Source: a virus
Strand: one strand, 5' to 3'
DNA length: 15,876 bases
UHGV virus genome: UHGV-0274280
The position numbers were made by a program, and so were the translations under genes. Under the pieces are notes generated by a model that saw only the letters and a program-made list of their open reading frames with translations, made no database searches and was not told the origin of the DNA. Positions within the stretch are counted from its first letter, which is position 1. The number at the start of each line of letters is the position of its first letter. Positions 1 through 15,876 of this stretch are shown one piece after another.

Positions 1-143
1 GTATATACAAACCCACAAACCAAATTTTCGTTCATAGCATATATTAAGTTTGTAAGATTGATTCCGTTATTTTCAATCGAACTGACGATTTTATGTTCAT
101 GCAAAGACATTTTATCAGATTTATTTTTAATTAAATTATTCAT
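1..143 (-). CDS. hypothetical protein, 5' part only (gene continues beyond window start)
   Basis: ATG at 143 with AAGGAG 6 nt upstream; frame stays open to the window edge (MNNLIKNKSDKMSLHEHKIVSSIENNGINLTNLIYAMNENLVCGFVY...). The ATG lies 8 nt inside the upstream recombinase gene, suggesting translational coupling. Not in the ORF track because under 60 aa within the window. AT-rich. Confidence 0.35.
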   Translation of the reverse strand, partial: MNNLIKNKSDKMSLHEHKIVSSIENNGINLTNLIYAMNENLVCGFVY

Positions 144-1338
144 CAAATTCTCCTTTGAATAGTTGCTCTTGTTGTTCAAGTGCAGTTTTTTTCGATAGCT
201 CATAAATATGCCTGCGATTATAAATCATTGAAGTTTCTGAACCCGGTCGCCATCCCATGAGATAAGAACGGATTTGTTGCTCTTTTTCATCGGATATGTC
301 CTGATTCTTGTCTATTGCTTTCGAAAACTCATAATTCCATGTATGTCTGAGTTTGTGACCTGTCAATCCCCCTAGAAGTGAGGAGGATTGACGAACAACA
401 CTCACCACTTTGTGATATGAAGAAAATGAAATAGGTTGCCCTTGAGTTTTTCCTTCCTTATAAGTAATAAACAGGAAATCATGTTTGTTAGAATTTTTTA
501 TGTTTCTTCGATCATTCAGAATATAATCTGAAATTTCAAACATGAGCTTTTTATCAGCAATTAATTTCCTCTCACAAGTTTTAACTAAAGGCTGATACAC
601 TCGCGGATCTGTTTTATCATTTGCTCTTCTTCTTATTGCAATTGTCGATTCTGCAAAATCTATATCACCCATTCGCAGATTCAAAAGTTCACCTGCTCTC
701 AGGCCAAAGCAGTGTAATAGCAGGAATATTAGATTGTTTCTTTTTTGCACTTTTTCTGAAAATGGATTTAATTTGCTACCCGGTGCAAGAATGCTAAACA
801 AAGAATCCAATTGTTCATTATTTAAACTTTTTTCTTTATCCATAGTATATTTATCATTATTTCTCGGTTTCTTTCGTTTTATGTTGTTAATGAAATCTAA
901 AATATATTTGAGAGTATCCTTCTGTCCTGTATGAGAAAGATGTATTTTGCACAGCCATTCCAGATAGTTAGCTATGGTTGTTATCCGAAAGTACTTAGTT
1001 GGTTTTTTGACATTTGAACTTCTAAAATTATCATTCTCGCCATCTCGAAAATTGAATGAAGTGAATTCGATCAAATCTTCAATTTCATGAGGAGCCAGAA
1101 ATATCCTTTTCTGAATTCTTTCATCAATATTGATATTTTTTCTCATAAAGAATCGATATAACAATGAAATGCTCCCAGCGATAACCTTCATTGTTGATAT
1201 AGACTCTGACCGATTCCTGACTTGTGTTGTTATATACAAGTTTGGATAATACAATGGCTCACCAGTATCTTTATTTACAACATGACAATATCTCTCACCA
1301 TTTTCGAACATAAAAGAATCCACACAAATACTGCACAT
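136..1338 (-). CDS. tyrosine-type site-specific recombinase / integrase-family protein (400 aa)
   Basis: Catalytic-domain signatures of the tyrosine recombinase family: box I-like LLLHCFGLRAGELLNLRMGDID (Arg), HKLRHTW (H-x-x-R), C-terminal SMIYNRRHIYE (candidate Tyr). ATG at 1338 with AGGAGG 5 nt upstream. Very AT-rich, unlike the other two integrases. Confidence 0.65.
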   Translation of the reverse strand: MCSICVDSFMFENGERYCHVVNKDTGEPLYYPNLYITTQVRNRSESISTMKVIAGSISLLYRFFMRKNINIDERIQKRIFLAPHEIEDLIEFTSFNFRDGENDNFRSSNVKKPTKYFRITTIANYLEWLCKIHLSHTGQKDTLKYILDFINNIKRKKPRNNDKYTMDKEKSLNNEQLDSLFSILAPGSKLNPFSEKVQKRNNLIFLLLHCFGLRAGELLNLRMGDIDFAESTIAIRRRANDKTDPRVYQPLVKTCERKLIADKKLMFEISDYILNDRRNIKNSNKHDFLFITYKEGKTQGQPISFSSYHKVVSVVRQSSSLLGGLTGHKLRHTWNYEFSKAIDKNQDISDEKEQQIRSYLMGWRPGSETSMIYNRRHIYELSKKTALEQQEQLFKGEFDE

Positions 1339-1446
1339 ATTTTCCTCCTAAACTTTACAAAAAGTATAATTCCAATATATTAATAATAAGCATTTCGTAG
1401 ATTTACAAATTTATTTGGATCGATTAAGATATTTATTTAAATTAAA

Positions 1447-1539
1447 ACAGTGAGATAGACGATTATTCTTGTCAAATTATCATCTGGTAGATCTAGTTAT
1501 TATTATGTACACCTAATACTTTGAAAACTATCTCACTGT
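1447..1539. repeat. perfect 12-bp inverted repeat pair (ACAGTGAGATAG at 1447-1458, CTATCTCACTGT at 1528-1539) flanking a 69-bp spacer
   Basis: Read directly from the sequence; lies in the 5' intergenic region of the recombinase gene. Confidence 0.7.
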
Positions 1540-1620
1540 CTTGCTAATAAACGGCAACCAAAATAATGTAAGTTATTTTGTAAGGTTTTAAGCCAAAATA
1601 TGGGGCCAAACTTTACATTT

Positions 1621-1935
1621 TTACAAAAGAGTTTTCAGCCCAATCTGATATCGAATTATCCGTTTCGATAAATTTCTAATTTCATCTGGGCATTTAATTA
1701 GCGAGAACCATGTTTCATACACATAAAACTGTTCGAAAATATTAAGCTCAGAGATCGAATCTAACGGTTCTCTTAGATTCCCCACTAAATACTGGCTTAA
1801 CCAGTAAACAATCTTTCTGTTAAATTCATTATCAGGTAAATCGTAAATCGCTCCGGGTTCGAAGATTTTACAGAAAAGTTCCTGGCCCAGATTACACATA
1901 TGGTTATCTTCACTCACAAATTCTTCGATATTCAT
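1621..1935 (-). CDS. hypothetical protein (104 aa from ATG at 1935; the ORF track starts 5 codons earlier at a TTG)
   Basis: ATG at 1935 with GGGAGG 6 nt upstream; only 20 nt after the alpA stop, so probably co-transcribed. AT-rich, no recognisable motif. Confidence 0.45.
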   Translation of the reverse strand: MNIEEFVSEDNHMCNLGQELFCKIFEPGAIYDLPDNEFNRKIVYWLSQYLVGNLREPLDSISELNIFEQFYVYETWFSLIKCPDEIRNLSKRIIRYQIGLKTLL

Positions 1936-1955
1936 AACATGCCTCCCCAAATTAA

Positions 1956-2171
1956 CTAAGCAACATTATTTCGACTTGTTTCGATAACAGACTGAATCCA
2001 GGCATCAATCTCACTTTCGACGAAAGCTACTGCACGAGTTCCAATTTTGACAGGGGCAGGAAACTTACCATCTTTGATCAGACGATAGACCCAGGCTTTG
2101 CCGAAACCAGTTCGTTTCAAGACTTCGGGTAAACGAATTAAGCTTTGATTGGTTGTATCGGTTGTATTCAT
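1956..2171 (-). CDS. alpA: AlpA-family phage transcriptional regulator / excisionase-like HTH protein (71 aa)
   Basis: LIRLPEVLKRTGFGKAWVYRLIKDGKFPAPVKIGTRAVAFVESEIDAWI follows the AlpA pattern (RLPEV..TG.....Y......FP.P.K.G.R.....E...W). Strong RBS GGAGGAGG 7 nt upstream of the ATG at 2171. Confidence 0.75.
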   Translation of the reverse strand: MNTTDTTNQSLIRLPEVLKRTGFGKAWVYRLIKDGKFPAPVKIGTRAVAFVESEIDAWIQSVIETSRNNVA

Positions 2172-2337
2172 TTGGCTACCTCCTCCGCTTCCGTTACGAA
2201 GATATTAGCCACACAGATTCGTATCTATGAAGGGAATGCTGATAACTGAAAAGTTAGATGAGGGAATAATGAAAGGAAATTCCGGGGAAGAAAAATATTT
2301 ACGCCCTCCCCTTGACAATTAACATGATGATTTACAA

Positions 2338-3147
2338 CTAGAAAGATCCGAGTTCCGAAATCGGTATGTTGCGGAGATGGCTGTTTTTGCTGATAAAATA
2401 TTCCAGACTACGGGTTGTTTCGCCATTCAATGACTTCTCTGCAACAGGCCTATCTGTATCTTTAATGTGATCTTCTCCTCTGATCTCATTTGTAAAGTCG
2501 GGATACAAGACACGAGACAAGACCATATTTGAGATTTTTACTTTTTTAAACTTTGCCCAAATCAATAAATCCATCATTGGGATAATATTGTAATCGACAA
2601 GTTTTCTTATTTTTGCAAGTCCAATTTTTTCTGTTTTCACTGGCTCAATTTCATATTCTTTTCTAAGATCTGGTAGCATCGTTTGTAAGGCTGTTATAAT
2701 TTCTTCATCGCTGGACATTCCTAAATCAAATGAAACATACATCTTGCTGCTATTTTGGTTTAGAAAAAAGTCCCTCATAGTTTTTGTAATTGGTTTCTTT
2801 TTCAACTCTTTTTTGAAATCGCCATTTTCTTCAAAAAAATCCATGCTAAACATTATTAACTTGTTCTCTAATTTTTTTATATCACCAAAGCTAACTTGCG
2901 CAACATGCCTTTGGCCCTTGCCAAAATGACCATGATTATTATCTTGTCTGCTTAAAATAGGATTACCTTCAAGGATAGACCTTAAATTTTGATTATCATC
3001 TTCCCATCCAAAATTTACACTGTCGAAAATCGCTTCTCTAAAGGCAAGCTCAGTATGCAGTTCTTTGATTGTAAGTGATTTTAACTGCTCATAGTTTTCG
3101 AGACTAAACCAGCTTTTTAATTCTTCATAAGGGCTTACTACTTTCAT
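2338..3147 (-). CDS. hypothetical protein, orphan cargo gene (269 aa from first ATG at 3147; 276 aa if the TTG at 3168 is used)
   Basis: Long ORF in AT-rich DNA between the P4-type integrase and alpA; GGAGG about 5 nt upstream of the ATG at 3147. No family recognised by eye. Confidence 0.5.
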   Translation of the reverse strand: MKVVSPYEELKSWFSLENYEQLKSLTIKELHTELAFREAIFDSVNFGWEDDNQNLRSILEGNPILSRQDNNHGHFGKGQRHVAQVSFGDIKKLENKLIMFSMDFFEENGDFKKELKKKPITKTMRDFFLNQNSSKMYVSFDLGMSSDEEIITALQTMLPDLRKEYEIEPVKTEKIGLAKIRKLVDYNIIPMMDLLIWAKFKKVKISNMVLSRVLYPDFTNEIRGEDHIKDTDRPVAEKSLNGETTRSLEYFISKNSHLRNIPISELGSF

Positions 3148-3204
3148 TAATCCCTCCACTGTATTCAAAGCTTGAATGAGTTAACACTGCTTATTTGAAT
3201 TAAT

Positions 3205-3232
3205 TCTCCCTTAACAAGATTGATAAGGGAGA
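3205..3232 (-). terminator. putative hairpin downstream of the P4-type integrase gene (8-bp stem TCTCCCTT / AAGGGAGA, 12-nt loop)
   Basis: Inverted repeat 27 bp past the int stop, followed on the minus strand by A/U-rich but not U-run sequence, so a weak intrinsic terminator at best. Confidence 0.3.
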
Positions 3233-3258
3233 GCGATTGATCATCTACTTATTCATAG

Positions 3259-4509
3259 TTAACTCTTTTTAAAATCAAATGGTGAAACTTGTCGTATTCT
3301 AAGGAGGTCAAGGTAATCGGCCCACCACTGCAACATAAGCTTTCTCTCATCAAGGTGCTCTGCTTTATGTATGTACGCAGCACGAACTGAGTTCCGCTCC
3401 TGATGGCTCATTTGCCGTTCAACAGCATCTTTCGACCACAAACCGGATTCAATTAAAGCACTACAAGCCATAGCTCTGAATCCATGTCCACAGACCTCCA
3501 CGGTTGTGTCATAGCCCATAGACCTCAAAGCCTTGTTTACCGTATTTTCACTCATGGGCTTTCTGAAATCATGGTCGCCAATGAACACGAGTTCATGGTC
3601 ACCGCTGATCTCTTTAATTTCCGTCAACACAGCCAATGCCTGACAACTCAAAGGAACAAGGTGTGGAGTTCGCATTTTCGAACCACGATGCGAATGTTTC
3701 ACTCCGGGTAATGGCTCTCGCTCTGCAGGAATAGTCCACATGGCATTGTCGAAATCTATCTCTGACCAACGAGCAAACCTGAGTTCACTCGAACGAATAA
3801 AAATGAGCAATGTAAGCTTTACGGCTAACTTCGTGAGCTTTCTACCTTTGAATATTTCAATTCGCTCTAGGAGTTCAGAGAAGCGATCAAACGGTAATGC
3901 CGGTCGGTGGGTTCTTTTTGCTACAGCAATAGCCCCAGACATTTCTTGGGCCGGATTATAGTCAATTAAGCCATTCTGGACGGCATATCGCAAAATTGCT
4001 GTGGTTCGTTGTTGTAGACGGGCTGCTACTTCTAACCGTCCAGAAGCTTCAACAACCTTGATCGGAACGAGTAGATCCTTGGTTTTAAGCTCGGCTATTT
4101 TTCTCTTTCCTATGAAAGAGAAAAGGTTATCTTCAAGGCTCTTTAAAACCCTCTCACTATGGGAATCTGACCATTTCCTTTTACAGGCAGTATGCCAGTC
4201 CCTTGCAACAGCTTCGAATGTCAGGGCTTCGCTTTGCTCGATTTTGTCTGCTTTTTTCTTTTCTGAGGGGTCGAGACCAAGCGATACTAATTTTTTGGCT
4301 TCATCCCGTTTCTTGCGGGCTTCACTAAGAGAGACCATTGGATAAACACCCAATGCTAAAACTTTCTGTTTGCCATCGAAACGGTATTGGAGTCGCCAGT
4401 ACTTCGAGCCGTTAGGATTGATCAGCAGGTGCATACCCTGCCCATCGGTGAGTTTGAAGGGTTTGTCGGAGGGCTTGGTAGTCCTAACTTTGATATCGGT
4501 GAGAGCCAT
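3259..4509 (-). CDS. int: P4 / CP4-57-type tyrosine integrase (416 aa)
   Basis: N-terminal arm-binding region (KPSDKPFKLTDGQGMHLLINPNGSKYWRLQYRFDGKQKVLALGVYPMVSLSEARKKRDEAKKLVSLGLDP) typical of P4-like integrases; catalytic region with HGFRAMACSAL and ...RAAYIH. ATG at 4509 with GGAGG 9 nt upstream. Confidence 0.85.
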   Translation of the reverse strand: MALTDIKVRTTKPSDKPFKLTDGQGMHLLINPNGSKYWRLQYRFDGKQKVLALGVYPMVSLSEARKKRDEAKKLVSLGLDPSEKKKADKIEQSEALTFEAVARDWHTACKRKWSDSHSERVLKSLEDNLFSFIGKRKIAELKTKDLLVPIKVVEASGRLEVAARLQQRTTAILRYAVQNGLIDYNPAQEMSGAIAVAKRTHRPALPFDRFSELLERIEIFKGRKLTKLAVKLTLLIFIRSSELRFARWSEIDFDNAMWTIPAEREPLPGVKHSHRGSKMRTPHLVPLSCQALAVLTEIKEISGDHELVFIGDHDFRKPMSENTVNKALRSMGYDTTVEVCGHGFRAMACSALIESGLWSKDAVERQMSHQERNSVRAAYIHKAEHLDERKLMLQWWADYLDLLRIRQVSPFDFKKS

Positions 4510-4698: not shown

Positions 4699-4729
4699 TG
4701 GTGCCGAAGGCCGGACTCGAACCGGCACG
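4699..4729 (-). other. 31-nt tRNA 3'-end fragment (T-arm, acceptor 3' strand, CCA); leuX / tRNA-Leu-like; putative att core or direct repeat
   Basis: Reverse complement reads CGTGCCGGTTCGAGTCCGGCCTTCGGCACCA: T-stem GCCGG/CCGGC, T-loop TTCGAGT, CCA end. It matches my recollection of the last 31 nt of E. coli leuX. The upstream sequence does not supply the complementary acceptor 5' strand (GCCGAAG), so this is not a complete tRNA gene. Confidence 0.6.
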
Positions 4730-4862: not shown

Positions 4863-6071
4863 ATGAGTTTCAAGAGAGATCGTTATCTAGTTTTAGATCC
4901 CTGCGGGAATTACCTCGTGCGGATAGCTATCCCCAGCTATATGCGTCACCTGTTCCAAGGGAAACGCTACTTTATGAAAAGCACAGGGACACGAGACATA
5001 CGGCAAGCGCGATTGTTTCGCGATGCTATTGCTCTGGAATGGACTCGCTTACGGAATCTGCTAAAGCCACAAGGCGGCTCATCTGTAGACCAAATCATTG
5101 ATGAGCTACGCCGTGTCAGTGTGTACGCCAAGGAAGCCCCCGCATCGTTTGGTGCATCGATTCAGGCTTGCCCTTCCTTGCTAAAAATGCGTGATTTGTA
5201 CCTGCTTCAATACAGCGAGAAGCGAAAGCTAACCACGCTATCCAAGACCAATAAAGCCGTAGAGGTGCTGTTAACCCACCTGAAAAAGAAAGATGTTCAG
5301 TTGCGAGATATTAACCGAACCATAGTTACAGGCTGGTTAGATAAACTCAAAACTGAGCGAGCGCCCCAAACCATCCAGAACTATATCAGTGCACTGGCGC
5401 AGATATGGGATTTGGCACGCAATCGCTATCACGATGCGCCACAGGATAACCCTTGGCGTGGTCATGCACTCGAAGCAAAAAGCAGCAAGGTCAGCTATGA
5501 AGTCTTCGCACCGGGAGAGCTGGCAAAGGTCTATACCTTGCTTGATGACGAGATGAAGGCGGTAACGGCTATTGGTGCTTACAGCGGTATGCGGATCAAT
5601 GAAATATGTACGCTGCGTGAGAGCAGTATTAAAACCATCGAGGGCGTTTTGTGCTTTGAGATCACCGAGGGGAAGACCAAGAGCGCGGCACGAATCGTCC
5701 CAGTACACAGCAAGCTAATCCCCCTCGTGAAATCATTGCTCAAAACCACACATAGCGGTTTTCTGTTCTATCACGCGTCAATTACAGACCGGGCGGATGG
5801 GAAGCGCTCAACGTGGCATACGCAGCAGTTCACACGGGCAAAGCGTAAAGCTCTTGGCGAACTTGCCGCAGAGAGAAAAGTGTTTCACTCACTCCGCCAT
5901 GCGTTTGTGCAACAACTCGACCGTGCTCAAGTGCCAGAAGATAGGATCGCTCTGCTTGTAGGCCACGAACGAGGTAGCACTGAGAGTTTTAAGACATATT
6001 CAAAAAACGCAGCATCCCCTTTAGAGATGCGCCGGTATATTGAATTAATAGATTATGAATTAATTAAATGA
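4863..6071 (+). CDS. int: tyrosine-type phage integrase (402 aa), different family from the P4-type one
   Basis: N-terminal YLVRIAIPSYMRHLFQGKRYFMKSTGTRDIRQARL pattern common to phage/island integrases; C-terminal HSLRHAF (H-x-x-R) and LLVGHERGSTESFKTYSK (candidate Tyr). Transcribed away from the tRNA fragment. Confidence 0.8.
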   Translation: MSFKRDRYLVLDPCGNYLVRIAIPSYMRHLFQGKRYFMKSTGTRDIRQARLFRDAIALEWTRLRNLLKPQGGSSVDQIIDELRRVSVYAKEAPASFGASIQACPSLLKMRDLYLLQYSEKRKLTTLSKTNKAVEVLLTHLKKKDVQLRDINRTIVTGWLDKLKTERAPQTIQNYISALAQIWDLARNRYHDAPQDNPWRGHALEAKSSKVSYEVFAPGELAKVYTLLDDEMKAVTAIGAYSGMRINEICTLRESSIKTIEGVLCFEITEGKTKSAARIVPVHSKLIPLVKSLLKTTHSGFLFYHASITDRADGKRSTWHTQQFTRAKRKALGELAAERKVFHSLRHAFVQQLDRAQVPEDRIALLVGHERGSTESFKTYSKNAASPLEMRRYIELIDYELIK

Positions 6072-6106: not shown

Positions 6107-6580
6107 CTATGCAGCCGCTTCTGTTATACGTTCTCGATATTGTTTAGCTTCATCTATCCACATTTGTATTGCTTCTTGATTGTCCCAATTTGCATGGGCA
6201 TCATGATCAATAAAATCAACAATATAGTAGTGCCTTGTACCTGAGAATACAAAATACGAATATATCAAATAGCTGTTACTTTTACATTTCCATTGTACCA
6301 GTGGATGCCCATTGTCATCCTCCCAGACACTGTCTTCCTGCCTCACATGTAGATGTGTTAAACCTTCTCTTTTCTGATGATACGGCTTATCTTCATCAAC
6401 ATTGTCCCTATCTCTGCCAAAGAGCAGCGAAATAGATGCAAAAAGTTTTTGGATGGAATATCGGGGGCGGGAATGCTCTGCACTTAGTTGCTTATAGCGA
6501 CAGAACTCCTGATAAAAAGGAAGAAACTCGCCATCATTGGCGAGTTTTTCACAGCAATCAAACTCAATTGCAAGCGGCAT
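6107..6580 (-). CDS. hypothetical protein (157 aa), AT-rich moron gene
   Basis: ORF whose ATG at 6580 lies inside the 3' end of the upstream small ORF; AT-rich relative to the flanking operon; no family recognised. Confidence 0.5.
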   Translation of the reverse strand: MPLAIEFDCCEKLANDGEFLPFYQEFCRYKQLSAEHSRPRYSIQKLFASISLLFGRDRDNVDEDKPYHQKREGLTHLHVRQEDSVWEDDNGHPLVQWKCKSNSYLIYSYFVFSGTRHYYIVDFIDHDAHANWDNQEAIQMWIDEAKQYRERITEAAA

Positions 6581-8550: not shown

Positions 8551-9546
8551 TTATGCAGCTTGTCGGAAATTGATAACGCAGTCAGGACGACGCAGCCCAA
8601 CGTTGAACAGGCGATATGAGTCCATCACCATTGTCATTTCGCGTTCATCATCCCACTGGCGATTGATGACGCTCTGCGCTTCGACCGTCAGCAGCACAGA
8701 GGAAGGTTTAAACAGCGTCGCCCTCGTCATCGCTTCCTCTGCGGTAACGTCATAATCAGCGCCCAGTTCATGCCCGGTAATGACTTCCTGCGGGTAACTG
8801 TTCAGCTCAATGACTCGCACCCCAGCGACATAGCCAACGCGACGCCATGCGTAATCGTTGCCACTATCCCGGCTGTAACGGACGTTCATCAGCTTCTTAT
8901 GTTCCATCAGGATGCTGAACCATGCAGGGTCAATGAGAAGCACCAGCTCGGCCACCGGAATATCTTTCTCAGTGAGGAAGCGATTAGCAGCCGCTTTGAC
9001 GGCGTGAACCAATTCGTTTGCGGCGTCCTCTTCGCTCCCCGCTGTCAGGTCGAGCGAGACAACGTTATTCGTAAGCGGGTTAAACGTTGGTTGCAGTGTC
9101 GGCGGCGGTACAAAGTCAGTCGCTTTGATTAACTGGATGGTGTGCGCTTCGTCGTAGAACTTAGCGTGCGCAGTGCCGATATTGCGGCTCAGCTCTGCGC
9201 GAAATGTGGGTGCTGTCCAATCGTCCTGATAGTCAATCGGGACGCGGATATAACTCAGCGTATCCACAGAGATAACCAACTTGTCCGACTTAACGGCGGT
9301 AGGCTCCAGCGATTGCCCTGCGGTTCTGCCCTTCACCTCAAGATCACCACTCAGGCGATCAATGCGGTATTGGTTGCTGCCTTTCAGCGGCCTGTATGTA
9401 GACAGCCCCTCGGCCAGAAATACGGATTTGGACTCTAAACGGGTCTGGACATCCCGGTCATAAGCCTCGATGTGAATATCATTGTCGGATTCCACCCCGC
9501 CATAATGTGGGCGAAACAGATCGGGACTGTACGAAGTATCAGCCAT
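8551..9546 (-). CDS. major capsid protein homolog, T7 gp10-like (331 aa from ATG at 9546)
   Basis: By-eye block alignment to T7 gp10A from memory: KLVISVDTLSYIRVPIDYQDD...RAELSRNIGTAHAKFYDEA vs KVITIDGLLTADVLIYDIED...RSEYTSQLGESLAMAADGA, and FLTEKDIPVAELVLLIDPAWFSIL vs LTKNYVPAADRVFYCDPDSYSAIL. Similar length (T7 gp10A is 345 aa). AGGAG 8 nt upstream of ATG 9546; the ORF track start at 9591 has no RBS. Confidence 0.6.
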   Translation of the reverse strand: MADTSYSPDLFRPHYGGVESDNDIHIEAYDRDVQTRLESKSVFLAEGLSTYRPLKGSNQYRIDRLSGDLEVKGRTAGQSLEPTAVKSDKLVISVDTLSYIRVPIDYQDDWTAPTFRAELSRNIGTAHAKFYDEAHTIQLIKATDFVPPPTLQPTFNPLTNNVVSLDLTAGSEEDAANELVHAVKAAANRFLTEKDIPVAELVLLIDPAWFSILMEHKKLMNVRYSRDSGNDYAWRRVGYVAGVRVIELNSYPQEVITGHELGADYDVTAEEAMTRATLFKPSSVLLTVEAQSVINRQWDDEREMTMVMDSYRLFNVGLRRPDCVINFRQAA

Positions 9547-9744
9547 AAACAAAACTCCTACGTAGGTTGATGAAGCCCGCGCCATCGTCATGGCACAGAC
9601 GTGCGGAATCCTCCCGCCGAGGCAGGATTCAGAACGGTATCGATTAAAGGGATGAGGTGCCCCGAAATGGGCGTTTTGAGGCCAGAGCTGGCGCGGTTCT
9701 CAGGGGTTAGTGCGCGTGAAGTAAGGCGAACGTATTACCTTGCA

Positions 9745-12030: not shown

Positions 12031-12203
12031 AAATTAAACTCCGAATCAAATTTGATCTGGTCAGTAACCAACGTGTGAATCAGCGCAAGGCTTGACGCGG
12101 TGTGTGTGCCCGACTTGCGGGCGTTGTCGTACATGAAGCGGACTACACGTTGATATTTCTCCGGCAGCGTGGCGAACCATTGCCGGAACTGTTCAGGGGT
12201 CAT
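12027..12203 (-). CDS. hypothetical small protein (58 aa), absent from the ORF track
   Basis: MTPEQFRQWFATLPEKYQRVVRFMYDNARKSGTHTASSLALIHTLVTDQIKFDSEFNL; its start overlaps the upstream stop (caATGAcc) and its stop overlaps the downstream start (ttATGAct), closing an apparent 170-bp gap in the operon. Confidence 0.35.
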   Translation of the reverse strand: MTPEQFRQWFATLPEKYQRVVRFMYDNARKSGTHTASSLALIHTLVTDQIKFDSEFNL

Positions 12204-12409
12204 TGGTCGTCATCCTCCGGGAACACGTTGTTAAAGGTTGTATCAGGCGAGTCGGCGGCGTTCTGCTTGAGGAAGTTCACGCAGGATGACAACTCGGCAG
12301 CAGCCATGCGTGACTCTCCCGCCTCGTCCTCCTTAAGCCTGCGCGTCAACGCACCCAGCAGCAGGGTTTTTAGTTCCCATGCTCCGGCTTCAAATTCAGA
12401 TTTCGTCAT
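12200..12409 (-). CDS. hypothetical protein (69 aa)
   Basis: ATGA overlap with the upstream 145-aa gene; acidic C-terminus. Confidence 0.4.
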   Translation of the reverse strand: MTKSEFEAGAWELKTLLLGALTRRLKEDEAGESRMAAAELSSCVNFLKQNAADSPDTTFNNVFPEDDDQ

Positions 12410-12880: not shown

Positions 12881-14725
12881 TCAGAGGTATTTAGCGATGT
12901 ACTGCCAGTTGCAGTTTTCAGGGCGGTAGAAGTAAGCAAGCTCATCAGGCGCAACATCCAGCGCCAGCGATGACCACAGCAGAAAAGCGCGGGCAGGTTC
13001 CCCATCGCGCCCGGCTCGTCCAATCATCTGAACGAGATCAGGCAAATCATCGGGGACGTATGTCACGACAACGTTACGGATATCAGGAACATCAGCACCC
13101 AGCCCGAAGGCTTTAGTAGCAATAAGAATCGCGCCCGGCGTAGAGGCAAACCACTCAGCGTTTGCGTGGCGTTCCTCGTTGCTCAGGTGCATCGTCTTCG
13201 AGTGATATGGCCGCGCCCGGTCGCCCAAGAGTTTCAGGTACGCCCGCAACGTTTTAAGGTCATTGACGAGAATAAGCGTCTTCTCTTCTTTCGGCAGAGC
13301 CTCGACCAGACCAATAGCCGCTCGGAAACGTTCGCGGCACTGTCTGACTGGCGTCAACTGGATATTCTCGCGAGCAACATCAGCGCGGAATGTTACGTAA
13401 TCGCCACGGCAGCCAAGCGACTCCATTAAACTGCGCTCATTTTCGCGTAGCAGCGTAGCCGTAAACACGCAGCGTTGAGCCGAAGGAAAGGCATTCTGTA
13501 GTGTGTGCTGCATTGCGTCGTAAGCTGGGCGGAAATCCCAGTCTTTGACCGTGTGTGCCTCATCGATAATAAAACGATCAACGCCATAAGCCATCAGCGC
13601 CGCGAGAACCTGACTCGACGGAACCAGATGTTCAGGCGAAACGACTGCAACCCGGAACGCCCCGGCAGCCAGCCCCGCCAGTTGTTGCGCATTGCGGTGC
13701 CTCGGCAGCTTGTCACCAAATGCCACAGCGTGAACGCCAGCCTCCCGCAACTGGCGGAGAATCTGACGCTTAAGGGTATTAGTAGGAACAACGATAACAG
13801 ACAGGCCAACGCCAGCGCGGGATTCATAAATCAATGGGTAAGTGAAGGCAGCGCTTTTGCCATACCCAGTAGGCAGAACGGCAAGCACATCACTGCCACG
13901 GGAAAAGATCGCATCAGCAACAGACAATTGCCCCGGCCTCCACTCCAGCCCATCAGGTGGCAGCAGGCTAACGCGTGCGTTTCGGTCACAGCGAGCCAGG
14001 GGGCGGAACTCATACGGCGTAGTATTCAGTGGCGGCACAGACGGCGAAGCAGCCAAGCCGTTCGGGTCACAATGATGATTTGTATTATTAAATCTATCTT
14101 CGGTAGGCTTCGACTCTCCACACCAAAATTGACGAAACTCCCCTGAGTCTCCGTAGCGTTTGAAATCTGCGTTACGCATCGCTTCCAGTTTACCCATGCC
14201 CCTGTTAATTCGGCGCATGGTCTTCTCATCGCAAATGAGAAACTCGCGGCAGGCTTTGAGAAAAGCATTCTGTCCGGTTGTTGATTCCGGCACGGCGTGC
14301 TCGCGCGGTTTCAATGCGGCATCGTCTACGCGAACGCCGGGGAAATCTGGCGGCAGTGGTTCAACATAACGAGCAGGCTTTTTATTTAGCCATTGCTCAA
14401 TCTCAGCGCGTCGGCAGTGAATCGCGTCGCCGGGCTGGATGACTTGCCGCAACCCAGCGTCAGAGCGCTGTTTTTGTTTCTTCGGTTGAACACCGTGCAG
14501 CGTTCGCCACTCCCGCAAGGTCATCGCGGAGCCATCTGCATTGTAATAAAACTCTTCGGTCTTTGTGTTGTATGCCGCCTTAACGGGCTTACGCTTTACG
14601 GGGCATATCTTGGAACGTCGAATAACAACCCCGTCAGCGATCATTTGCTGTACATCTGCGTCCGCAGTATTGAGCGGGTCAGCGTCGGCAGCCTGCGCAA
14701 GCAGGCGGCGTAGGTTTGTTGGCAT
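12881..14725 (-). CDS. RecQ-family DEAH-box superfamily-2 DNA helicase with ~270-aa N-terminal domain of unknown function (614 aa)
   Basis: Walker A LAVLPTGYGKSAAF, motif II FIIDEAHTVKDWDFRPAY (RecQ signature DEAH...W..DFRP.Y), motif III VFTATL, C-terminal ILIATKAFGLGADVPDIRNVVVTYVPDDLPDLVQMIGRAGRDG. GGAG 8 nt upstream of the ATG. First gene of the operon. Confidence 0.8.
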   Translation of the reverse strand: MPTNLRRLLAQAADADPLNTADADVQQMIADGVVIRRSKICPVKRKPVKAAYNTKTEEFYYNADGSAMTLREWRTLHGVQPKKQKQRSDAGLRQVIQPGDAIHCRRAEIEQWLNKKPARYVEPLPPDFPGVRVDDAALKPREHAVPESTTGQNAFLKACREFLICDEKTMRRINRGMGKLEAMRNADFKRYGDSGEFRQFWCGESKPTEDRFNNTNHHCDPNGLAASPSVPPLNTTPYEFRPLARCDRNARVSLLPPDGLEWRPGQLSVADAIFSRGSDVLAVLPTGYGKSAAFTYPLIYESRAGVGLSVIVVPTNTLKRQILRQLREAGVHAVAFGDKLPRHRNAQQLAGLAAGAFRVAVVSPEHLVPSSQVLAALMAYGVDRFIIDEAHTVKDWDFRPAYDAMQHTLQNAFPSAQRCVFTATLLRENERSLMESLGCRGDYVTFRADVARENIQLTPVRQCRERFRAAIGLVEALPKEEKTLILVNDLKTLRAYLKLLGDRARPYHSKTMHLSNEERHANAEWFASTPGAILIATKAFGLGADVPDIRNVVVTYVPDDLPDLVQMIGRAGRDGEPARAFLLWSSLALDVAPDELAYFYRPENCNWQYIAKYL

Positions 14726-15114
14726 GGTGAAATCTCCAGAAAATAGGGGTAGGTATTAGCTCAGGTTGGGGCGGTGGTACAGGTGCGGCAGACTCTCTGC
14801 CCTTATAGAGGTTTTCATGTCGGCAACAGTGTCAGTGTCTTTATCTGCCTTAATAGTCACTTTCAAAATCGGAGAGTTTGTCGCGCTTCGGGAGTTATTC
14901 TTTCTCCTTAGTAGATACCTTCATTAGGTCAATTTTTAACCACAACCTCGCTAAGCCTTACTGAGCCTGGGCTGGCAATACTTAACAGCGCGATTTTTGT
15001 CGGTCAAAAGCGGGAAAGTAATGCTCTATATCTCCTTATTAGTAGCCTTTAAAATTAAAAATATAAGTTACTGATATCAATAGATAATTATGAAAGTGTC
15101 TATAGTGATATAGT

Positions 15115-15600
15115 ATCGCTAGATACGCAGAGCGAGCGCGGCGCAGCCGAAACAAGCGAGCGCCGAACTGATGACGGATGGCAGACCGTAGGACTGACAG
15201 ACGGCAGACAGTGAAGGCAGTAGGACAGGTGACAGACAGTAACCGTGACGGCGTGCCATAGCTGGCAGTAGCACAGCAGGCAGTAAGACCAATGACCGAC
15301 GGCTAAGACCTGAAAGGAAACGAAAAAGAAAGATGATTGAACGATACAGAAATGAATGAAGATGTTTTGAAGAATACCTACCGATAACAGTATATGATTG
15401 ATTAAATTAACAATACCGATAAAGAGTACCGTTCCACTACACATCCCCGCCGCGTTGCCTGCCACGGCAAGCACGGTTGCGTAGAGTCGCCGAGCATCAG
15501 CAGCGGGCGAAGACCGGGAATGAGCCAAAGGCGATGGAGCGGGCTGGAGCATAGCGAGAAGCGCAGCAAGTGAAGAGAGCGAAGCACTCGTAACTACATT
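15115..15600. repeat. T-depleted, purine-rich non-coding region with short degenerate repeats (GGCAG x5, GGCAGTA x3, GACAG x5, AGCGAGCGC x2, GCGAAG x3)
   Basis: About 10% T in sampled 60-nt lines between 15121 and 15300. GGCAG starts at 15180, 15203, 15216, 15264, 15279; GACAG at 15196, 15207, 15224, 15231, 15235. No ORF of 60 aa or more on the plus strand. Confidence 0.5.
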
Positions 15601-15876
15601 TAGGAGAAGGGATGTAAGGGAAGAACCCTTTCCTGTACATGTATTTCAAATGCAACTTTAAAGATACTACTAACGTGTTGACCAGCTTCAAATCTAGCTT
15701 AGTGATTGGACAACGCAGCCTTTGATCCCTTCCCCTGCCCCATCCCTCGAATTGTTCAGTGATAACTCACATTCACAATCTGATCTCGATGTTCATCGTC
15801 TGGCACGGCTAAAGCCCCGCCACCTCTTCACATCGAGAGCCGCAAGTAACACGAAAATACATTATAAATCATATCG

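What the first reader, a model, noticed from the sequence alone, without database searches (positions are those of the whole stretch)
15115..15600. Strongly purine-skewed, repeat-rich non-coding region upstream of the operon
Nearly 500 bp with about 10% T on the plus strand and recurring GGCAG(TA)/GACAG/AGCGAGCGC/GCGAAG units. The only minus-strand ORF here translates to low-complexity Cys/Ser-rich sequence and is probably not a gene. Candidates are an iteron-type origin for the adjacent helicase, a long C/U-rich leader (Rho utilisation-like if transcribed leftward), or a structured ncRNA.
Basis: seen in the sequence. Interest (0 to 1): 0.6.

Follow-up and report, generated by a model that had tools for sequence, protein, structure and literature searches.

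The report
Helper-phage promoter copy in satellite island
The odd T-poor stretch is non-coding DNA that a 14.6-kb E. coli island, probably a phage satellite, has copied almost letter for letter from the left end of T7-like Bonnellvirus phages, including what looks like the phage's own RNA-polymerase promoter, so the island is probably switched on by infection with those phages.

Summary
The skew and repeats are real but narrower than described. T is 10% and GGCAG/GACAG units are enriched only in 15115-15300; T is 14% over 15115-15600.

The window is E. coli EC09 chromosome. The region lies in a 1263-bp unannotated gap inside a 14.65-kb island at tRNA-Leu. The island encodes a capsid protein 55% identical to that of Bonnellvirus phages.

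Window 15063-15291 is 87-98% identical to non-coding DNA just inside the left terminal repeat of those lytic T7-like phages. It begins with an exact copy (15090-15108, + strand) of a 19-nt motif. That motif recurs in the phage downstream of its RNA-polymerase gene, and it co-varies between the two sites across phage clades. A mapped antisense left-end promoter in phiKMV-like phage LUZ19 is a direct precedent.

The finding region is therefore the T-poor stretch downstream of a putative helper-phage promoter. Weaker promoter-like motifs face the helicase operon, where no sigma-70 promoter was found. Island variants carry versions matching different phage clades.

The best reading is a helper-sensing cis module of a satellite of virulent T7-like phages. 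It most likely acts as a transcription-activated origin; this step is inferred. It has no regular iterons, no support as a Rho leader, no Rfam match and no real ORF.

The parts
15063..15291 (+). Block homologous to the non-coding left end of Bonnellvirus phages. The island + strand corresponds to the phage non-coding strand.
   Evidence: blastn against 50,697 phage records finds 15 Bonnellvirus records at 87-98% identity. The match to phage mellemsur is 162/166 over 15063-15228. Alignment A1 places the block 60-340 columns inside the 259-bp terminal repeat annotated in J8-65.
15088..15109 (+). Putative promoter for the helper phage's single-subunit RNA polymerase, pointing rightward into the finding region. 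The core is ATGAAAGTGTCTATAGTGA at 15090-15108. A start near G15105 is inferred only by analogy with T7 TATAG.
   Evidence: The motif occurs 3 times in mellemsur against 0.01 expected, including between the RNA-polymerase gene and the structural genes. There is one exact copy in 37 kb of host locus. It is the best position-weight-matrix hit in the window, at 33.9 bits. The motif co-varies between the two phage sites in J8-65 versus the mellemsur group. Precedent: LUZ19 P001 (PMC10914365).
15115..15300 (+). T-poor (10%), purine-rich, GGCAG/GACAG-rich stretch just downstream of the promoter motif.
   Evidence: Composition and repeat statistics are. The homologous phage stretch is T-poor from the promoter motif to the genome end: mellemsur 6.9% T over 463 nt, J8-65 8.9%. 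Every island variant with the + promoter motif has 9-12% T in the next 200 nt.
15300..15420 (.). A-rich spacer of low G+C (45% A, 32% G+C), specific to the island.
   Evidence: It is conserved among type-A island variants but has no phage match.
15420..15575 (.). Block B, which is conserved in every island variant examined, including those that lack the phage-like block. It contains a covarying 4-5-bp stem at 15461-15465 / 15486-15490 and the invariant CCGAGCATC.
   Evidence: Alignments. The stem has six different fully Watson-Crick versions plus a paired 1-nt indel. RNAalifold support for a larger structure is weak on both strands.
15031..15054 (-). Promoter-like motif TTTTAAAGGCTACTAATAAGGAGA, back to back with the + promoter motif and facing the helicase operon. 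It is conserved in all variants.
   Evidence: The columns are invariant in A2. In variants L027 and L050 it reads TTTAAA(G/A)GTGTCTATATTG at 17-20 bits, and its 12-nt core GTGTCTATATTG is identical to that of the third mellemsur site, ATGAAGGTGTCTATATTGG.
14799..14926 (-). Three further degenerate promoter-like motifs in the operon leader (14926->14905, 14868->14847, 14820->14799).
   Evidence: These are the 2nd, 3rd and 5th best matrix hits in the whole window on both strands. There are 3 hits of at least 8.7 bits against 0.035 in 5000 shuffles. In variant L042 both the + and - motifs are of the J8-65 type, GTAACTGT. No sigma-70-like site occurs in 14600-15876.
12881..14725 (-). SF2 helicase (DEAD + Helicase_C), the first gene of the leftward operon.
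   Evidence: Pfam, PHROGs, RefSeq annotation.
12200..12409 (-). A 69-aa ORF with weak similarity to the N-terminal half of the phage small terminase.
   Evidence: tblastn and BLASTP against mellemsur TerS give 19/45 identical, pairwise E 2e-5. There is no PHROG hit. Treat as a lead only.
8551..9591 (-). Major capsid protein homologue encoded by the island.
   Evidence: phrog_267 major head protein, E 6.6e-71. It is 55% identical to the mellemsur capsid protein over 326 aa and about 65% identical at the nucleotide level.
15700..15876 (.). Block C, which runs on to about 15988, beyond the window. It is nearly invariant non-coding DNA downstream of the serine recombinase gene, with a covarying hairpin at 15785-15792 / 15830-15837.
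   Evidence: CTCGATGT/ACATCGAG changes to CTTGATGC/GCATCAAG, and to GAAGGTG/CACCTTC in Rosenbergiella. Two intermediates are G.U on the minus strand and C.A on the plus strand.
4699..4729 (.). Distal attachment-site repeat: a 31-bp copy of the 3' end of tRNA-Leu. It marks one end of the 14.65-kb island, next to the integrase at 4863-6071.
   Evidence: Exact 31-bp repeat at L001 7800 and 22425.

Best explanation
**What it is**

The region is the stretch downstream of a putative helper-phage promoter, inside the control region of a phage-satellite-like island.

- Window 15063-15291 is a recently exchanged copy of the non-coding DNA that lies just inside the left terminal repeat of Bonnellvirus phages. 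These are T7-like phages with phiKMV-type gene order.
- In those phages this DNA holds an 'antisense' promoter motif for the phage's own single-subunit RNA polymerase. It fires leftward through a strongly T-poor stretch into the terminal repeat.
- The island keeps an exact copy of that motif at 15090-15108 on the + strand.

**How it most likely works (inferred)**

- When a matching Bonnellvirus infects, its RNA polymerase transcribes 15105 onward. The product is a U-poor, purine-rich RNA that runs across the A-rich spacer into conserved block B.
- Weaker motifs of the same kind on the opposite strand switch on the helicase-to-capsid operon. That operon has no recognisable host promoter.
- I take the rightward unit to act in cis, most likely as a transcription-activated origin. 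A purine-rich RNA on a pyrimidine-rich template, followed by an easily melted A-rich stretch, could form an R-loop. The helper's replication proteins could then copy the excised island.

**Shown and inferred**

- Shown: the homology, the motif and its distribution, the orientation, the conserved composition, and the mosaic matching to phage clades.
- Inferred: promoter activity in this phage genus, induction by infection, and the origin role.
For: 1. **Homology.** 15 Bonnellvirus genomes match at 87-98%, with 162/166 identity to mellemsur. The match lies in the junction between the last gene (endolysin) and the first gene (SAMase). It sits 60-340 alignment columns inside the 259-bp terminal repeat annotated in J8-65.
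2. **Promoter motif in the phage.** The 19-mer occurs 3 times in mellemsur against 0.01 expected. One copy lies between the RNA-polymerase gene and the structural genes, one in the early/middle region, and one antisense at the left end.
3. **Co-variation in phages.** J8-65 has GTA(A/T)CTGTAGTG at both the left-end and the structural-module site. The mellemsur group has GTGTCTATAGTG at both.
4. **Experimental precedent.** In the phiKMV-like phage LUZ19, cappable-seq mapped four phage-specific promoters. Two lie just downstream of the RNA-polymerase gene. One antisense promoter, P001, lies at the left end and is conserved in 15 Phikmvvirus species (PMC10914365).
5. **Island side.** The only exact copy in 37 kb faces the finding region. 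It scores 33.9 bits against a next best of 14.4.
6. **Tuning to the helper.** Variant L042 has J8-65-type motifs on both strands. Different variants best match mellemsur, glasur, RZ4 or Kc261 at 89-98%.
7. **Recent exchange.** The only other island-to-phage match is the capsid gene, at about 65% nucleotide and 55% protein identity. The non-coding block is therefore far younger than the rest of the island, or is held to the helper's sequence.
8. **Composition tied to the putative transcription unit.** Phages are 7-9% T from the promoter motif to the genome end. Every island variant with the + motif is 9-12% T over the next 200 nt. Rosenbergiella keeps a weak motif (11 bits) and a purine-rich stretch (71% purine, 16% T) with no detectable sequence similarity to phages.
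9. **Operon promoters.** No sigma-70-like promoter occurs in 14600-15876. There are 3 promoter-like hits on the operon strand against 0.035 in shuffles.
10. **Satellite context.** A 14.65-kb island is bounded by 31-bp tRNA-Leu repeats and carries an integrase. It has a capsid homologue and a possible small-terminase-like ORF. It has no RNA polymerase, DNA polymerase, portal or tail genes.
11. **Phagemid precedent.** T7 phagemids need a T7 origin, a pac site and a terminal repeat to be replicated and transduced (PMC13236587, citing Chung & Hinkle 1990).
Against: - No transcript or 5'-end data exist for this locus or for any Bonnellvirus. The promoter assignment rests on motif statistics, position and the LUZ19 analogy. 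The LUZ19 motif has a different sequence.
- The function of the antisense unit is unknown even in phages. The LUZ19 authors suggest only that it blocks read-through into the early genes.
- An origin role is an argument from architecture. In the phage the same promoter motif is not followed by an A-rich stretch.
- Types B and C of the island lack the + motif yet keep blocks B and C. The module is therefore dispensable or replaceable.
- No excised, circular or virion-derived copy of the island was found in the viral or metagenome collections. Satellite behaviour is unproven.
- T7-like phages recombine very actively (my own knowledge). High identity to current phages could therefore reflect gene conversion during infection rather than selection on the sequence.
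Confidence: 0.6

Rival explanations
1. Packaging-signal mimic. The copied phage segment is the site that the helper's small terminase recognises (pacB-like). Island concatemers would then be packaged into helper-derived capsids, as P4 and cos-type PICIs do with the cos sites of their helpers.
For: The segment lies next to the phage terminal repeat. It is kept at 87-98% identity for 110-250 bp beyond the promoter motif, more than a promoter alone needs. It holds short repeated units. In T7 the small terminase binds PacB in the concatemer (PMC9860248). The island encodes capsid, HNH and endonuclease VII homologues.
Against: Homology always stops 40 or more alignment columns before the pause-like motif and 60 or more before the terminal-repeat edge. 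The island therefore has neither the repeat nor the mapped J8-65 cut sites. The island may carry its own small-terminase-like protein, which would make mimicry of the helper site unnecessary. Types B and C lack the block. Where pacB lies in this phage group is unknown.
Confidence: 0.15
2. Leader of an infection-induced non-coding RNA. The functional product would be the conserved downstream elements (block B, and perhaps block C). The phage-derived part would only supply an exchangeable promoter and 5' leader.
For: Blocks B and C are conserved in all variants and genera, whereas the upstream module is swapped. Type B has a perfect TATAAT hexamer, read by eye, and a purine-rich stretch in the same place. 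Block B has a stem with six compensatory versions. Block C has a covarying 8-bp hairpin.
Against: Rfam gives no hit at E<=1. RNAalifold on block B gives only -14 to -17 kcal/mol with no covariation bonus on either strand. Fold z-scores are ordinary. The two informative intermediates in block C favour the minus strand, opposite to the promoter motif. The block B stem has no wobble pairs, so it fits a DNA hairpin as well as an RNA one.
Confidence: 0.12
3. Recombination relic with a transcriptional insulator role at most. The block entered by homologous or illegitimate recombination with infecting phages and is continually re-converted. Its only activity would be the one proposed for LUZ19 P001: blocking read-through into the downstream promoter region.
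For: The mosaic pattern has a fixed left end and variable right ends. The LUZ19 authors propose an anti-read-through role. The motif faces transcription coming from the recombinase gene.
Against: An intact, high-scoring motif (25-34 bits) is retained in all type-A variants across E. coli, Kluyvera, Enterobacter and many metagenome contigs. Rosenbergiella keeps a purine-rich, T-poor stretch without sequence similarity to phages. The motif type co-varies on both strands in L042.
Confidence: 0.08
4. Iteron-type replication origin bound by an island-encoded initiator or by the adjacent helicase.
For: GGCAG and GACAG units are enriched. An A-rich, low-G+C stretch follows them. The region lies next to a helicase gene.
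Against: The units are 5-7 nt long, irregularly spaced and not tandem. They are inherited from phage DNA, and the island's own helicase has no detectable homologue in the phage genome. The helicase is an SF2 RecQ/DEAD-type protein with no recognised origin-binding domain. The units are absent from type B and C islands, which keep the same helicase.
Confidence: 0.04
5. Rho-utilisation-like C/U-rich leader of the leftward operon, or a real Cys/Ser-rich gene on the minus strand.
For: The minus strand of 15115-15300 is C-rich (34% C, 25% G). A 150-codon ORF is present.
Against: The conserved operon-facing promoter motif (15054->15031) lies downstream of the region, so the operon leader would not include it. 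Stop-free stretches change frame and length between variants, and 1-nt indels are common. RefSeq annotates no gene here in any of the 59 genomes.
Confidence: 0.01

Closest known systems
Antisense phage-specific promoter P001 of Pseudomonas phage LUZ19 and 15 other Phikmvvirus species (Putzeys et al. 2024, PMC10914365)
   Same: Both are single-subunit RNA-polymerase promoters or promoter motifs at the left end of a phiKMV-type genome, on the strand opposite to all the genes, firing toward the genome end. Sister copies lie directly downstream of the RNA-polymerase gene.
   Different: It belongs to a different genus and has a different motif sequence (GgtTATGTCACacACAnnGG against ATGAAAGTGTCTATAGTGA). 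The Bonnellvirus motif has not been mapped experimentally. Here the copy sits in a bacterial island, not in a phage.
T7 primary origin and T7 phagemids (Chung & Hinkle 1990, as cited in PMC13236587)
   Same: A phage RNA-polymerase promoter followed by easily melted A/T-rich DNA lets foreign DNA be replicated by the phage machinery. The T7 promoter-plus-AT-rich origin architecture is from my own knowledge.
   Different: The island's A-rich stretch lies about 190 nt downstream of the motif, not directly after it. No replication data exist. The island has no terminal repeat homologous to the phage's.
Cis-site mimicry by phage satellites: P4 carrying the P2 cos site, and cos-type PICIs such as SaPIbov5 and EcCICFT073 (own knowledge)
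   Same: An integrated island with few structural genes carries a near-identical copy of a helper's non-coding cis element. The copy reveals who the helper is.
   Different: The copied element is a promoter motif plus the stretch downstream of it, not the cleavage or packaging site. The presumed helpers are virulent T7-like podoviruses. The island has its own capsid gene but no portal, tail or large terminase genes.
R-loop origins: ColE1 RNA II, phage T4 ori(uvsY)/ori(34), mitochondrial LSP/CSB (own knowledge)
   Same: Each has a promoter, then a stretch that gives purine-rich RNA on a pyrimidine-rich template, then an unwinding element.
   Different: The resemblance is architectural only. G-clustering is modest, with a GC skew of about +0.15. 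Nothing has been tested.
Short repeat arrays SRL/SRR flanking the T7 terminal repeat (Dunn & Studier 1983; own knowledge)
   Same: Both are strand-asymmetric arrays of short imperfect repeats just inside the terminal repeat of a T7-like genome.
   Different: The sequences are unrelated. The function of the T7 arrays is itself unclear. No alignment with T7 was made here.

Membership tests
Phage single-subunit RNA-polymerase promoter (Bonnellvirus type) | The sequence motif is shared with other promoter positions in the cognate phage and is far more frequent than chance. | tested here: met
   Three copies in mellemsur against 0.01 expected. The island copy is identical to two of them.
Phage single-subunit RNA-polymerase promoter (Bonnellvirus type) | Copies sit where phiKMV-type phages have mapped promoters: downstream of the RNA-polymerase gene and antisense at the left end. 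| tested here: met
   Mellemsur sites at 25714-25732(-) and 3819-3837(+). LUZ19 mapping is in PMC10914365.
Phage single-subunit RNA-polymerase promoter (Bonnellvirus type) | Specificity bases co-vary with the phage clade. | tested here: met
   J8-65 has GTAACTGTAG / GTATCTGTAG. The mellemsur group has GTGTCTATAG at both sites. Island variant L042 has the J8-65 type on both strands.
Phage single-subunit RNA-polymerase promoter (Bonnellvirus type) | Transcription starts at the motif and depends on the phage polymerase. | not testable with these tools
   No transcriptome or in vitro data are available for Bonnellvirus or for this island.
Phage satellite (P4-like, PICI, cfPICI, PLE, PICMI) | An integrated element with an integrase and attachment repeats, much smaller than the helper. 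| tested here: met
   14.65 kb between 31-bp tRNA-Leu repeats, with an integrase at 4863-6071. The phages are 41-42.5 kb.
Phage satellite (P4-like, PICI, cfPICI, PLE, PICMI) | It lacks a full virion and replication gene set but carries elements that interface with a specific helper. | tested here: met
   Only a capsid homologue and a possible small-terminase-like ORF match the phage. No RNA polymerase, DNA polymerase, portal or tail genes were found.
Phage satellite (P4-like, PICI, cfPICI, PLE, PICMI) | Gene content matches one of the described families (for example AlpA with Pri-Rep, P4 Sid/Psu/delta, or the cfPICI capsid module). | tested here: not met
   Pfam, PHROGs and PADLOC show an SF2 helicase, HNH, endonuclease VII, a T7-type capsid protein and a serine recombinase. 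None of the hallmark sets is present. If this is a satellite, it is of an undescribed family.
Phage satellite (P4-like, PICI, cfPICI, PLE, PICMI) | Helper-dependent excision, replication and packaging. | tested here: inconclusive
   All 26 metagenome contigs with block C are in chromosomal context. No viral-collection contig carries it, and no contig has terminal repeats. Absence from these collections is weak evidence.
Iteron-type replication origin | Several direct repeats of about 17-22 bp at regular, helically phased spacing next to an AT-rich region and an initiator gene. | tested here: not met
   The units are 5-7 nt at irregular spacing. Tandem Repeats Finder finds nothing. The 18-23-nt families have 3 copies at 70-83% identity. 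No initiator domain was found.
T7-type transcription-activated origin | A phage promoter followed by an A/T-rich, easily melted segment. | tested here: inconclusive
   The motif at 15090-15108 and an A-rich segment with 32% G+C at 15300-15420 are both present. They are about 190 nt apart, and the function is untested.
Terminal repeat / pac-site copy of the helper | Contains the helper's terminal repeat or its mapped ends. | tested here: not met
   Island-to-phage homology ends at A1 columns 1134-1241. The J8-65 repeat spans columns 1302-1596.
Curated RNA family (Rfam 15) | A covariance-model match. | tested here: not met
   No match at gathering score in the window. No match at E<=1 in L001 17700-19200.
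Rho-utilisation leader | A C-rich, G-poor segment that is transcribed and untranslated ahead of the regulated genes. | tested here: not met
   The minus strand has 34% C but 25% G. The region lies upstream of the conserved operon-facing promoter motif, so it would not be in the operon transcript.

The most novel reading that the evidence does not exclude
The island is the first recognised family of satellites of virulent T7-like (Autographivirales) phages in Enterobacteriaceae. It would detect its helper directly through copied promoters for the helper's own RNA polymerase. One promoter would drive the helicase-capsid operon. The other, with its U-poor leader, would fire an R-loop-type origin or a packaging-linked element. 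The copies would be repeatedly re-matched to whichever Bonnellvirus clade is circulating.
Probability: 0.35. Interest if true: 0.85.

Novelty: new variant of a known kind. Interest (0 to 1): 0.7.

Why it matters
- **A different kind of helper.** Most well-studied satellites (P4, the SaPIs and other PICIs, and cfPICIs) parasitise temperate phages, although PLEs and PICMIs exploit virulent ones. They sense their helpers through helper proteins (my own knowledge). Here the presumed helpers are strictly lytic T7-like podoviruses.
- **A different kind of sensing.** Copying the helper's private promoter would give helper-specific induction without a dedicated sensor protein. It would also explain why the copy tracks phage clades.
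- **A route to an open phage question.** The role of the antisense left-end promoter and the T-poor terminal region of phiKMV-type phages is unknown. The island offers a natural minimal test bed for it.
- **Practical relevance.** The island is present in about 1% of complete E. coli genomes (59 of 5426). One carrier is the model EPEC strain E2348/69. Bonnellviruses that plate on K-12 are available (PMC7552041), so the experiment is feasible. Such islands may affect phage-therapy outcomes.

Tried and rejected
- **Cos or terminal-repeat copy.** This was my first idea after the phage hits. I rejected it because alignment with the annotated J8-65 repeats shows that the homology never reaches the repeat.
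- **TCACTATAG as the promoter core.** Read on the phage coding strand, it is not enriched (6 against 5.8). The real motif is its complement in a longer context. I found it by aligning phage intergenic regions.
- **CTACTAAGGAGA as a phage promoter.** It is not enriched in the phage. It is the island-specific 3' half of the degenerate minus-strand motifs.
- **Kc261 record length as a clue to the terminal repeat.** The record is 42,432 bp and the paper gives 42,203 bp. The record simply starts at the SAMase ATG, so this gives no information on the ends.
- **The glasur record break.** It falls inside the promoter motif. I treated it as an assembly artefact.
- **Phage source for type B and Rosenbergiella modules.** No match in 50,697 phage records.
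- **Free satellite genomes.** There was no exact match to block C in IMG/VR. The 26 metagenome contigs with block C are all chromosomal in context and lack terminal repeats.
- **Structured RNA.** Rfam was searched twice. RNAalifold was run on block B on both strands. Single-sequence folds were ordinary. Only one short stem survives.
- **Literature.** Five searches for satellites of T7-like, Autographiviridae or phiKMV phages found nothing relevant in the held library. The library misses most subscription journals.
- **Plasmid collection.** The single hit is a chromosome misfiled as a plasmid.
Full report
**1. Where the window comes from**

The last 977 bases of the window are 100% identical to the E. 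coli EC09 chromosome, NZ_CM169492.1. Window coordinate equals locus L001 coordinate minus 3101.

The finding lies in a 1263-bp stretch with no annotated feature. On one side is a 614-aa DEAD/Helicase_C helicase (window 12881-14725, minus strand). On the other is a 191-aa serine recombinase just beyond the window end.

Both genes belong to a 14.65-kb island. It is bounded by an exact 31-bp repeat of the 3' end of tRNA-Leu (window 4699-4729 and L001 22425-22455) and has an integrase at 4863-6071. The intergenic stretch occurs once each in 59 of 5426 complete E. coli genomes, always on the chromosome and never annotated.

**2. Checking the observation**

- Over 15115-15600 the + strand has 14.2% T and 63% purine. 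The quoted ~10% T holds only for 15115-15300.
- That sub-segment is the T-poorest 186-nt stretch of the window on either strand.
- The region has three parts: a G+C-rich, T-poor, repeat-rich part (15115-15300); an A-rich part (15300-15420); and a second G+C-rich, T-poor part (15420-15600).
- In the first part, GGCAG (5 against 0.6), GACAG (5 against 1.2), GGCAGTA (3 against 0.04) and GCGAGCGC (2 against 0.04) exceed dinucleotide-preserving shuffles. GCGAAG does not.
- The units are irregularly spaced and not tandem.
- The 150-codon minus-strand ORF is what an A-poor strand produces by chance. It is not conserved in frame or length.

**3. The decisive lead**

A sensitive search of 50,697 phage records matched window 15062-15291 at 87-98% identity to 15 lytic phages of about 42 kb from Escherichia, Enterobacter, Kosakonia, Pantoea and Cronobacter. 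All those inspected are Bonnellvirus: Autographivirales with phiKMV/LIMEzero gene order and every gene on one strand. Identity to phage mellemsur is 162/166.

- In the phages the match lies in the non-coding junction between the last gene (endolysin) and the first gene (SAMase).
- The island + strand equals the phage non-coding strand. The island operon therefore points the same way as the phage genes.
- The type phage J8-65 has annotated 259-bp direct terminal repeats.
- In a joint alignment (A1), island-to-phage homology covers columns 961 to 1134-1241. The repeat spans columns 1302-1596.
- The island therefore copies DNA from just inside the left repeat. It does not copy the repeat, its ends, or the T7-CJ-like pause motif at column 1283.

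**4. What that DNA is in the phage**

Aligning phage intergenic regions showed that the left-end segment shares a motif with the gap between the RNA-polymerase gene and the structural genes.

- ATGAAAGTGTCTATAGTGA occurs three times in mellemsur against 0.01 expected. Two copies are sense, and the left-end copy is antisense, pointing at the terminal repeat.
- In J8-65 both the left-end and the structural-module copies read GTA(A/T)CTGTAGTG instead of GTGTCTATAGTG. This is co-variation expected of sites read by the same polymerase.
- The arrangement has an experimental precedent. In the phiKMV-like phage LUZ19, ONT-cappable-seq mapped four phage-specific promoters. Two lie directly downstream of the RNA-polymerase gene, and one antisense promoter, P001, lies at the left end. 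P001 transcripts run across the genome end, and the antisense promoter is conserved in 15 Phikmvvirus species (PMC10914365).
- From the motif to the genome end the phage strand is 6.9% T in mellemsur (463 nt) and 8.9% T in J8-65.

**5. The island side**

- The island has one exact copy of the motif (15090-15108, + strand) in 37 kb. It scores 33.9 bits on a matrix built from seven phage sites.
- It faces the finding region. That region would be transcribed rightward as a U-poor RNA.
- On the other strand, 15054->15031 holds a motif that is invariant in all island variants. In some variants its 12-nt core GTGTCTATATTG is identical to that of the third mellemsur site.
- Three more degenerate copies lie in the operon leader. 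They are the 2nd, 3rd and 5th best hits of the whole window, and 3 hits compare with 0.035 in shuffles.
- No sigma-70-like promoter or intrinsic terminator is found in 14600-15876.

**6. Comparative evidence**

I collected 44 copies of the region: from E. coli; from Kosakonia, Kluyvera, Enterobacter, Trabulsiella and Rosenbergiella; and from metagenomes.

- Type-A variants all keep a 25-34-bit + motif followed by 9-12% T over the next 200 nt.
- Their phage-like blocks best match different phage clades: mellemsur, glasur, RZ4 or Kc261, at 89-98%.
- One variant, L042, has J8-65-type motifs on both strands.
- Elsewhere the island matches phages only in its capsid gene, at about 65% nucleotide and 55% protein identity. 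The non-coding block is therefore young or is continually re-matched.
- Rosenbergiella has no detectable similarity to any phage record, yet keeps a weak motif (11 bits) and a purine-rich stretch (71% purine, 16% T).
- Types B and C lack the + motif.

**7. The right third of the finding**

15420-15575 (block B) is conserved in every variant, even where the phage-like block is replaced.

- It contains the invariant CCGAGCATC.
- It contains a short stem, 15461-15465 / 15486-15490, with six different fully complementary versions plus a paired indel. EC09 itself has one mismatch in this stem.
- Larger consensus folds are weak on both strands. Single-sequence folds are ordinary. Rfam finds nothing.

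Its role is unknown. It could be an RNA hairpin or a DNA hairpin.

**8. What the island is**

PHROGs identifies window 8551-9591 as a major head protein (E 6.6e-71). HNH and endonuclease VII homologues follow it. A 69-aa ORF resembles the N-terminus of the phage small terminase, but weakly.

There is no RNA polymerase, DNA polymerase, portal or tail gene. The architecture is conserved across genera, with 71-96% helicase identity. This fits a satellite better than a decaying prophage, although its gene content matches none of the described satellite families. I found no paper describing satellites of T7-like phages. The held library is incomplete.

**9. Mechanism**

- *Shown:* the homology, the motif statistics, the orientation, the composition, and the mosaic tracking of phage clades.
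- *Inferred:* the helper's RNA polymerase fires both ways from this region after infection.
- For the rightward unit I favour a cis role as a transcription-activated origin. Purine-rich RNA on a pyrimidine-rich template favours persistent hybrids, and an A-rich stretch follows. T7 phagemids show that a phage origin lets foreign DNA be copied by the phage machinery.
- A packaging-recognition role, an induced non-coding RNA and a mere insulator or relic remain possible.

**10. Verdict**

This is a real and interesting feature. It is a new variant of a known theme: a satellite copying a helper's cis element. The unusual twists are the helper type and the element copied.

Noticed in passing
window 15700-15876, continuing to about 15988 (L001 18800-19089): About 280 bp downstream of the serine recombinase stop codon is nearly invariant across genera. 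It contains a hairpin (15785-15792 / 15830-15837) with compensatory changes. Two intermediates are G.U on the minus strand only. There is no Rfam match.
   Followed up: partly
L001 19000-19095 (just beyond the window end): The last ~20 nt of the recombinase gene (TTGTAGGTCATCA) are repeated about 60 nt downstream as CTGTAGGTCATCCATCACCCACAG. This may be a recombinase site or a remnant of cassette exchange.
   Followed up: no
window 12881-14725: The helicase matches one PADLOC 'DpdF' sub-model almost end to end (PDLC02858, E 1e-276). That defence-system model may therefore have been built partly from this island's helicase, and may mislabel such islands as Dpd systems.
   Followed up: no
window 12200-12409 (minus): A 69-aa ORF shares 19/45 residues with the N-terminal half of the Bonnellvirus small terminase (MAAAELS...FLK.N). 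This could be a satellite-encoded terminase subunit.
   Followed up: partly
window 136-4509: Left of the island lie an IS1 element that cuts into DUF1788 and DUF1819 genes (probably BREX brxB/brxA-like, from my own knowledge) and a second tyrosine recombinase. This is a second, degraded element in tandem at the same tRNA-Leu site.
   Followed up: no
window 6107-6580: A YafO-family toxin gene sits between the integrase and the endonuclease VII-like gene of the island. RefSeq annotates no partner antitoxin here.
   Followed up: no
L008 (mellemsur) 25445-25463: The first 16 nt of a phage gene (ATGAAAGTGTCTACTATGG) repeat the promoter motif, 270 nt downstream of the real intergenic copy.
   Followed up: no
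L049 (metagenome contig UOJP01004101): In this island variant, window 15554 is joined directly to 7825. The helicase-to-capsid operon is deleted, but blocks B and C and the recombinase are kept.
   Followed up: no
L019, L025-L027, L050, L053 (type-B islands): The phage-like block is replaced by an unrelated AT-rich module that contains a perfect TATAAT hexamer and then a purine-rich stretch. No phage in the database matches it. It may come from an unsampled helper.
   Followed up: partly
window 15461-15490: EC09 itself has a C.C mismatch in the otherwise always-complementary block B stem (GCCAC/GTCGC, against GTGGC in close relatives).
   Followed up: no
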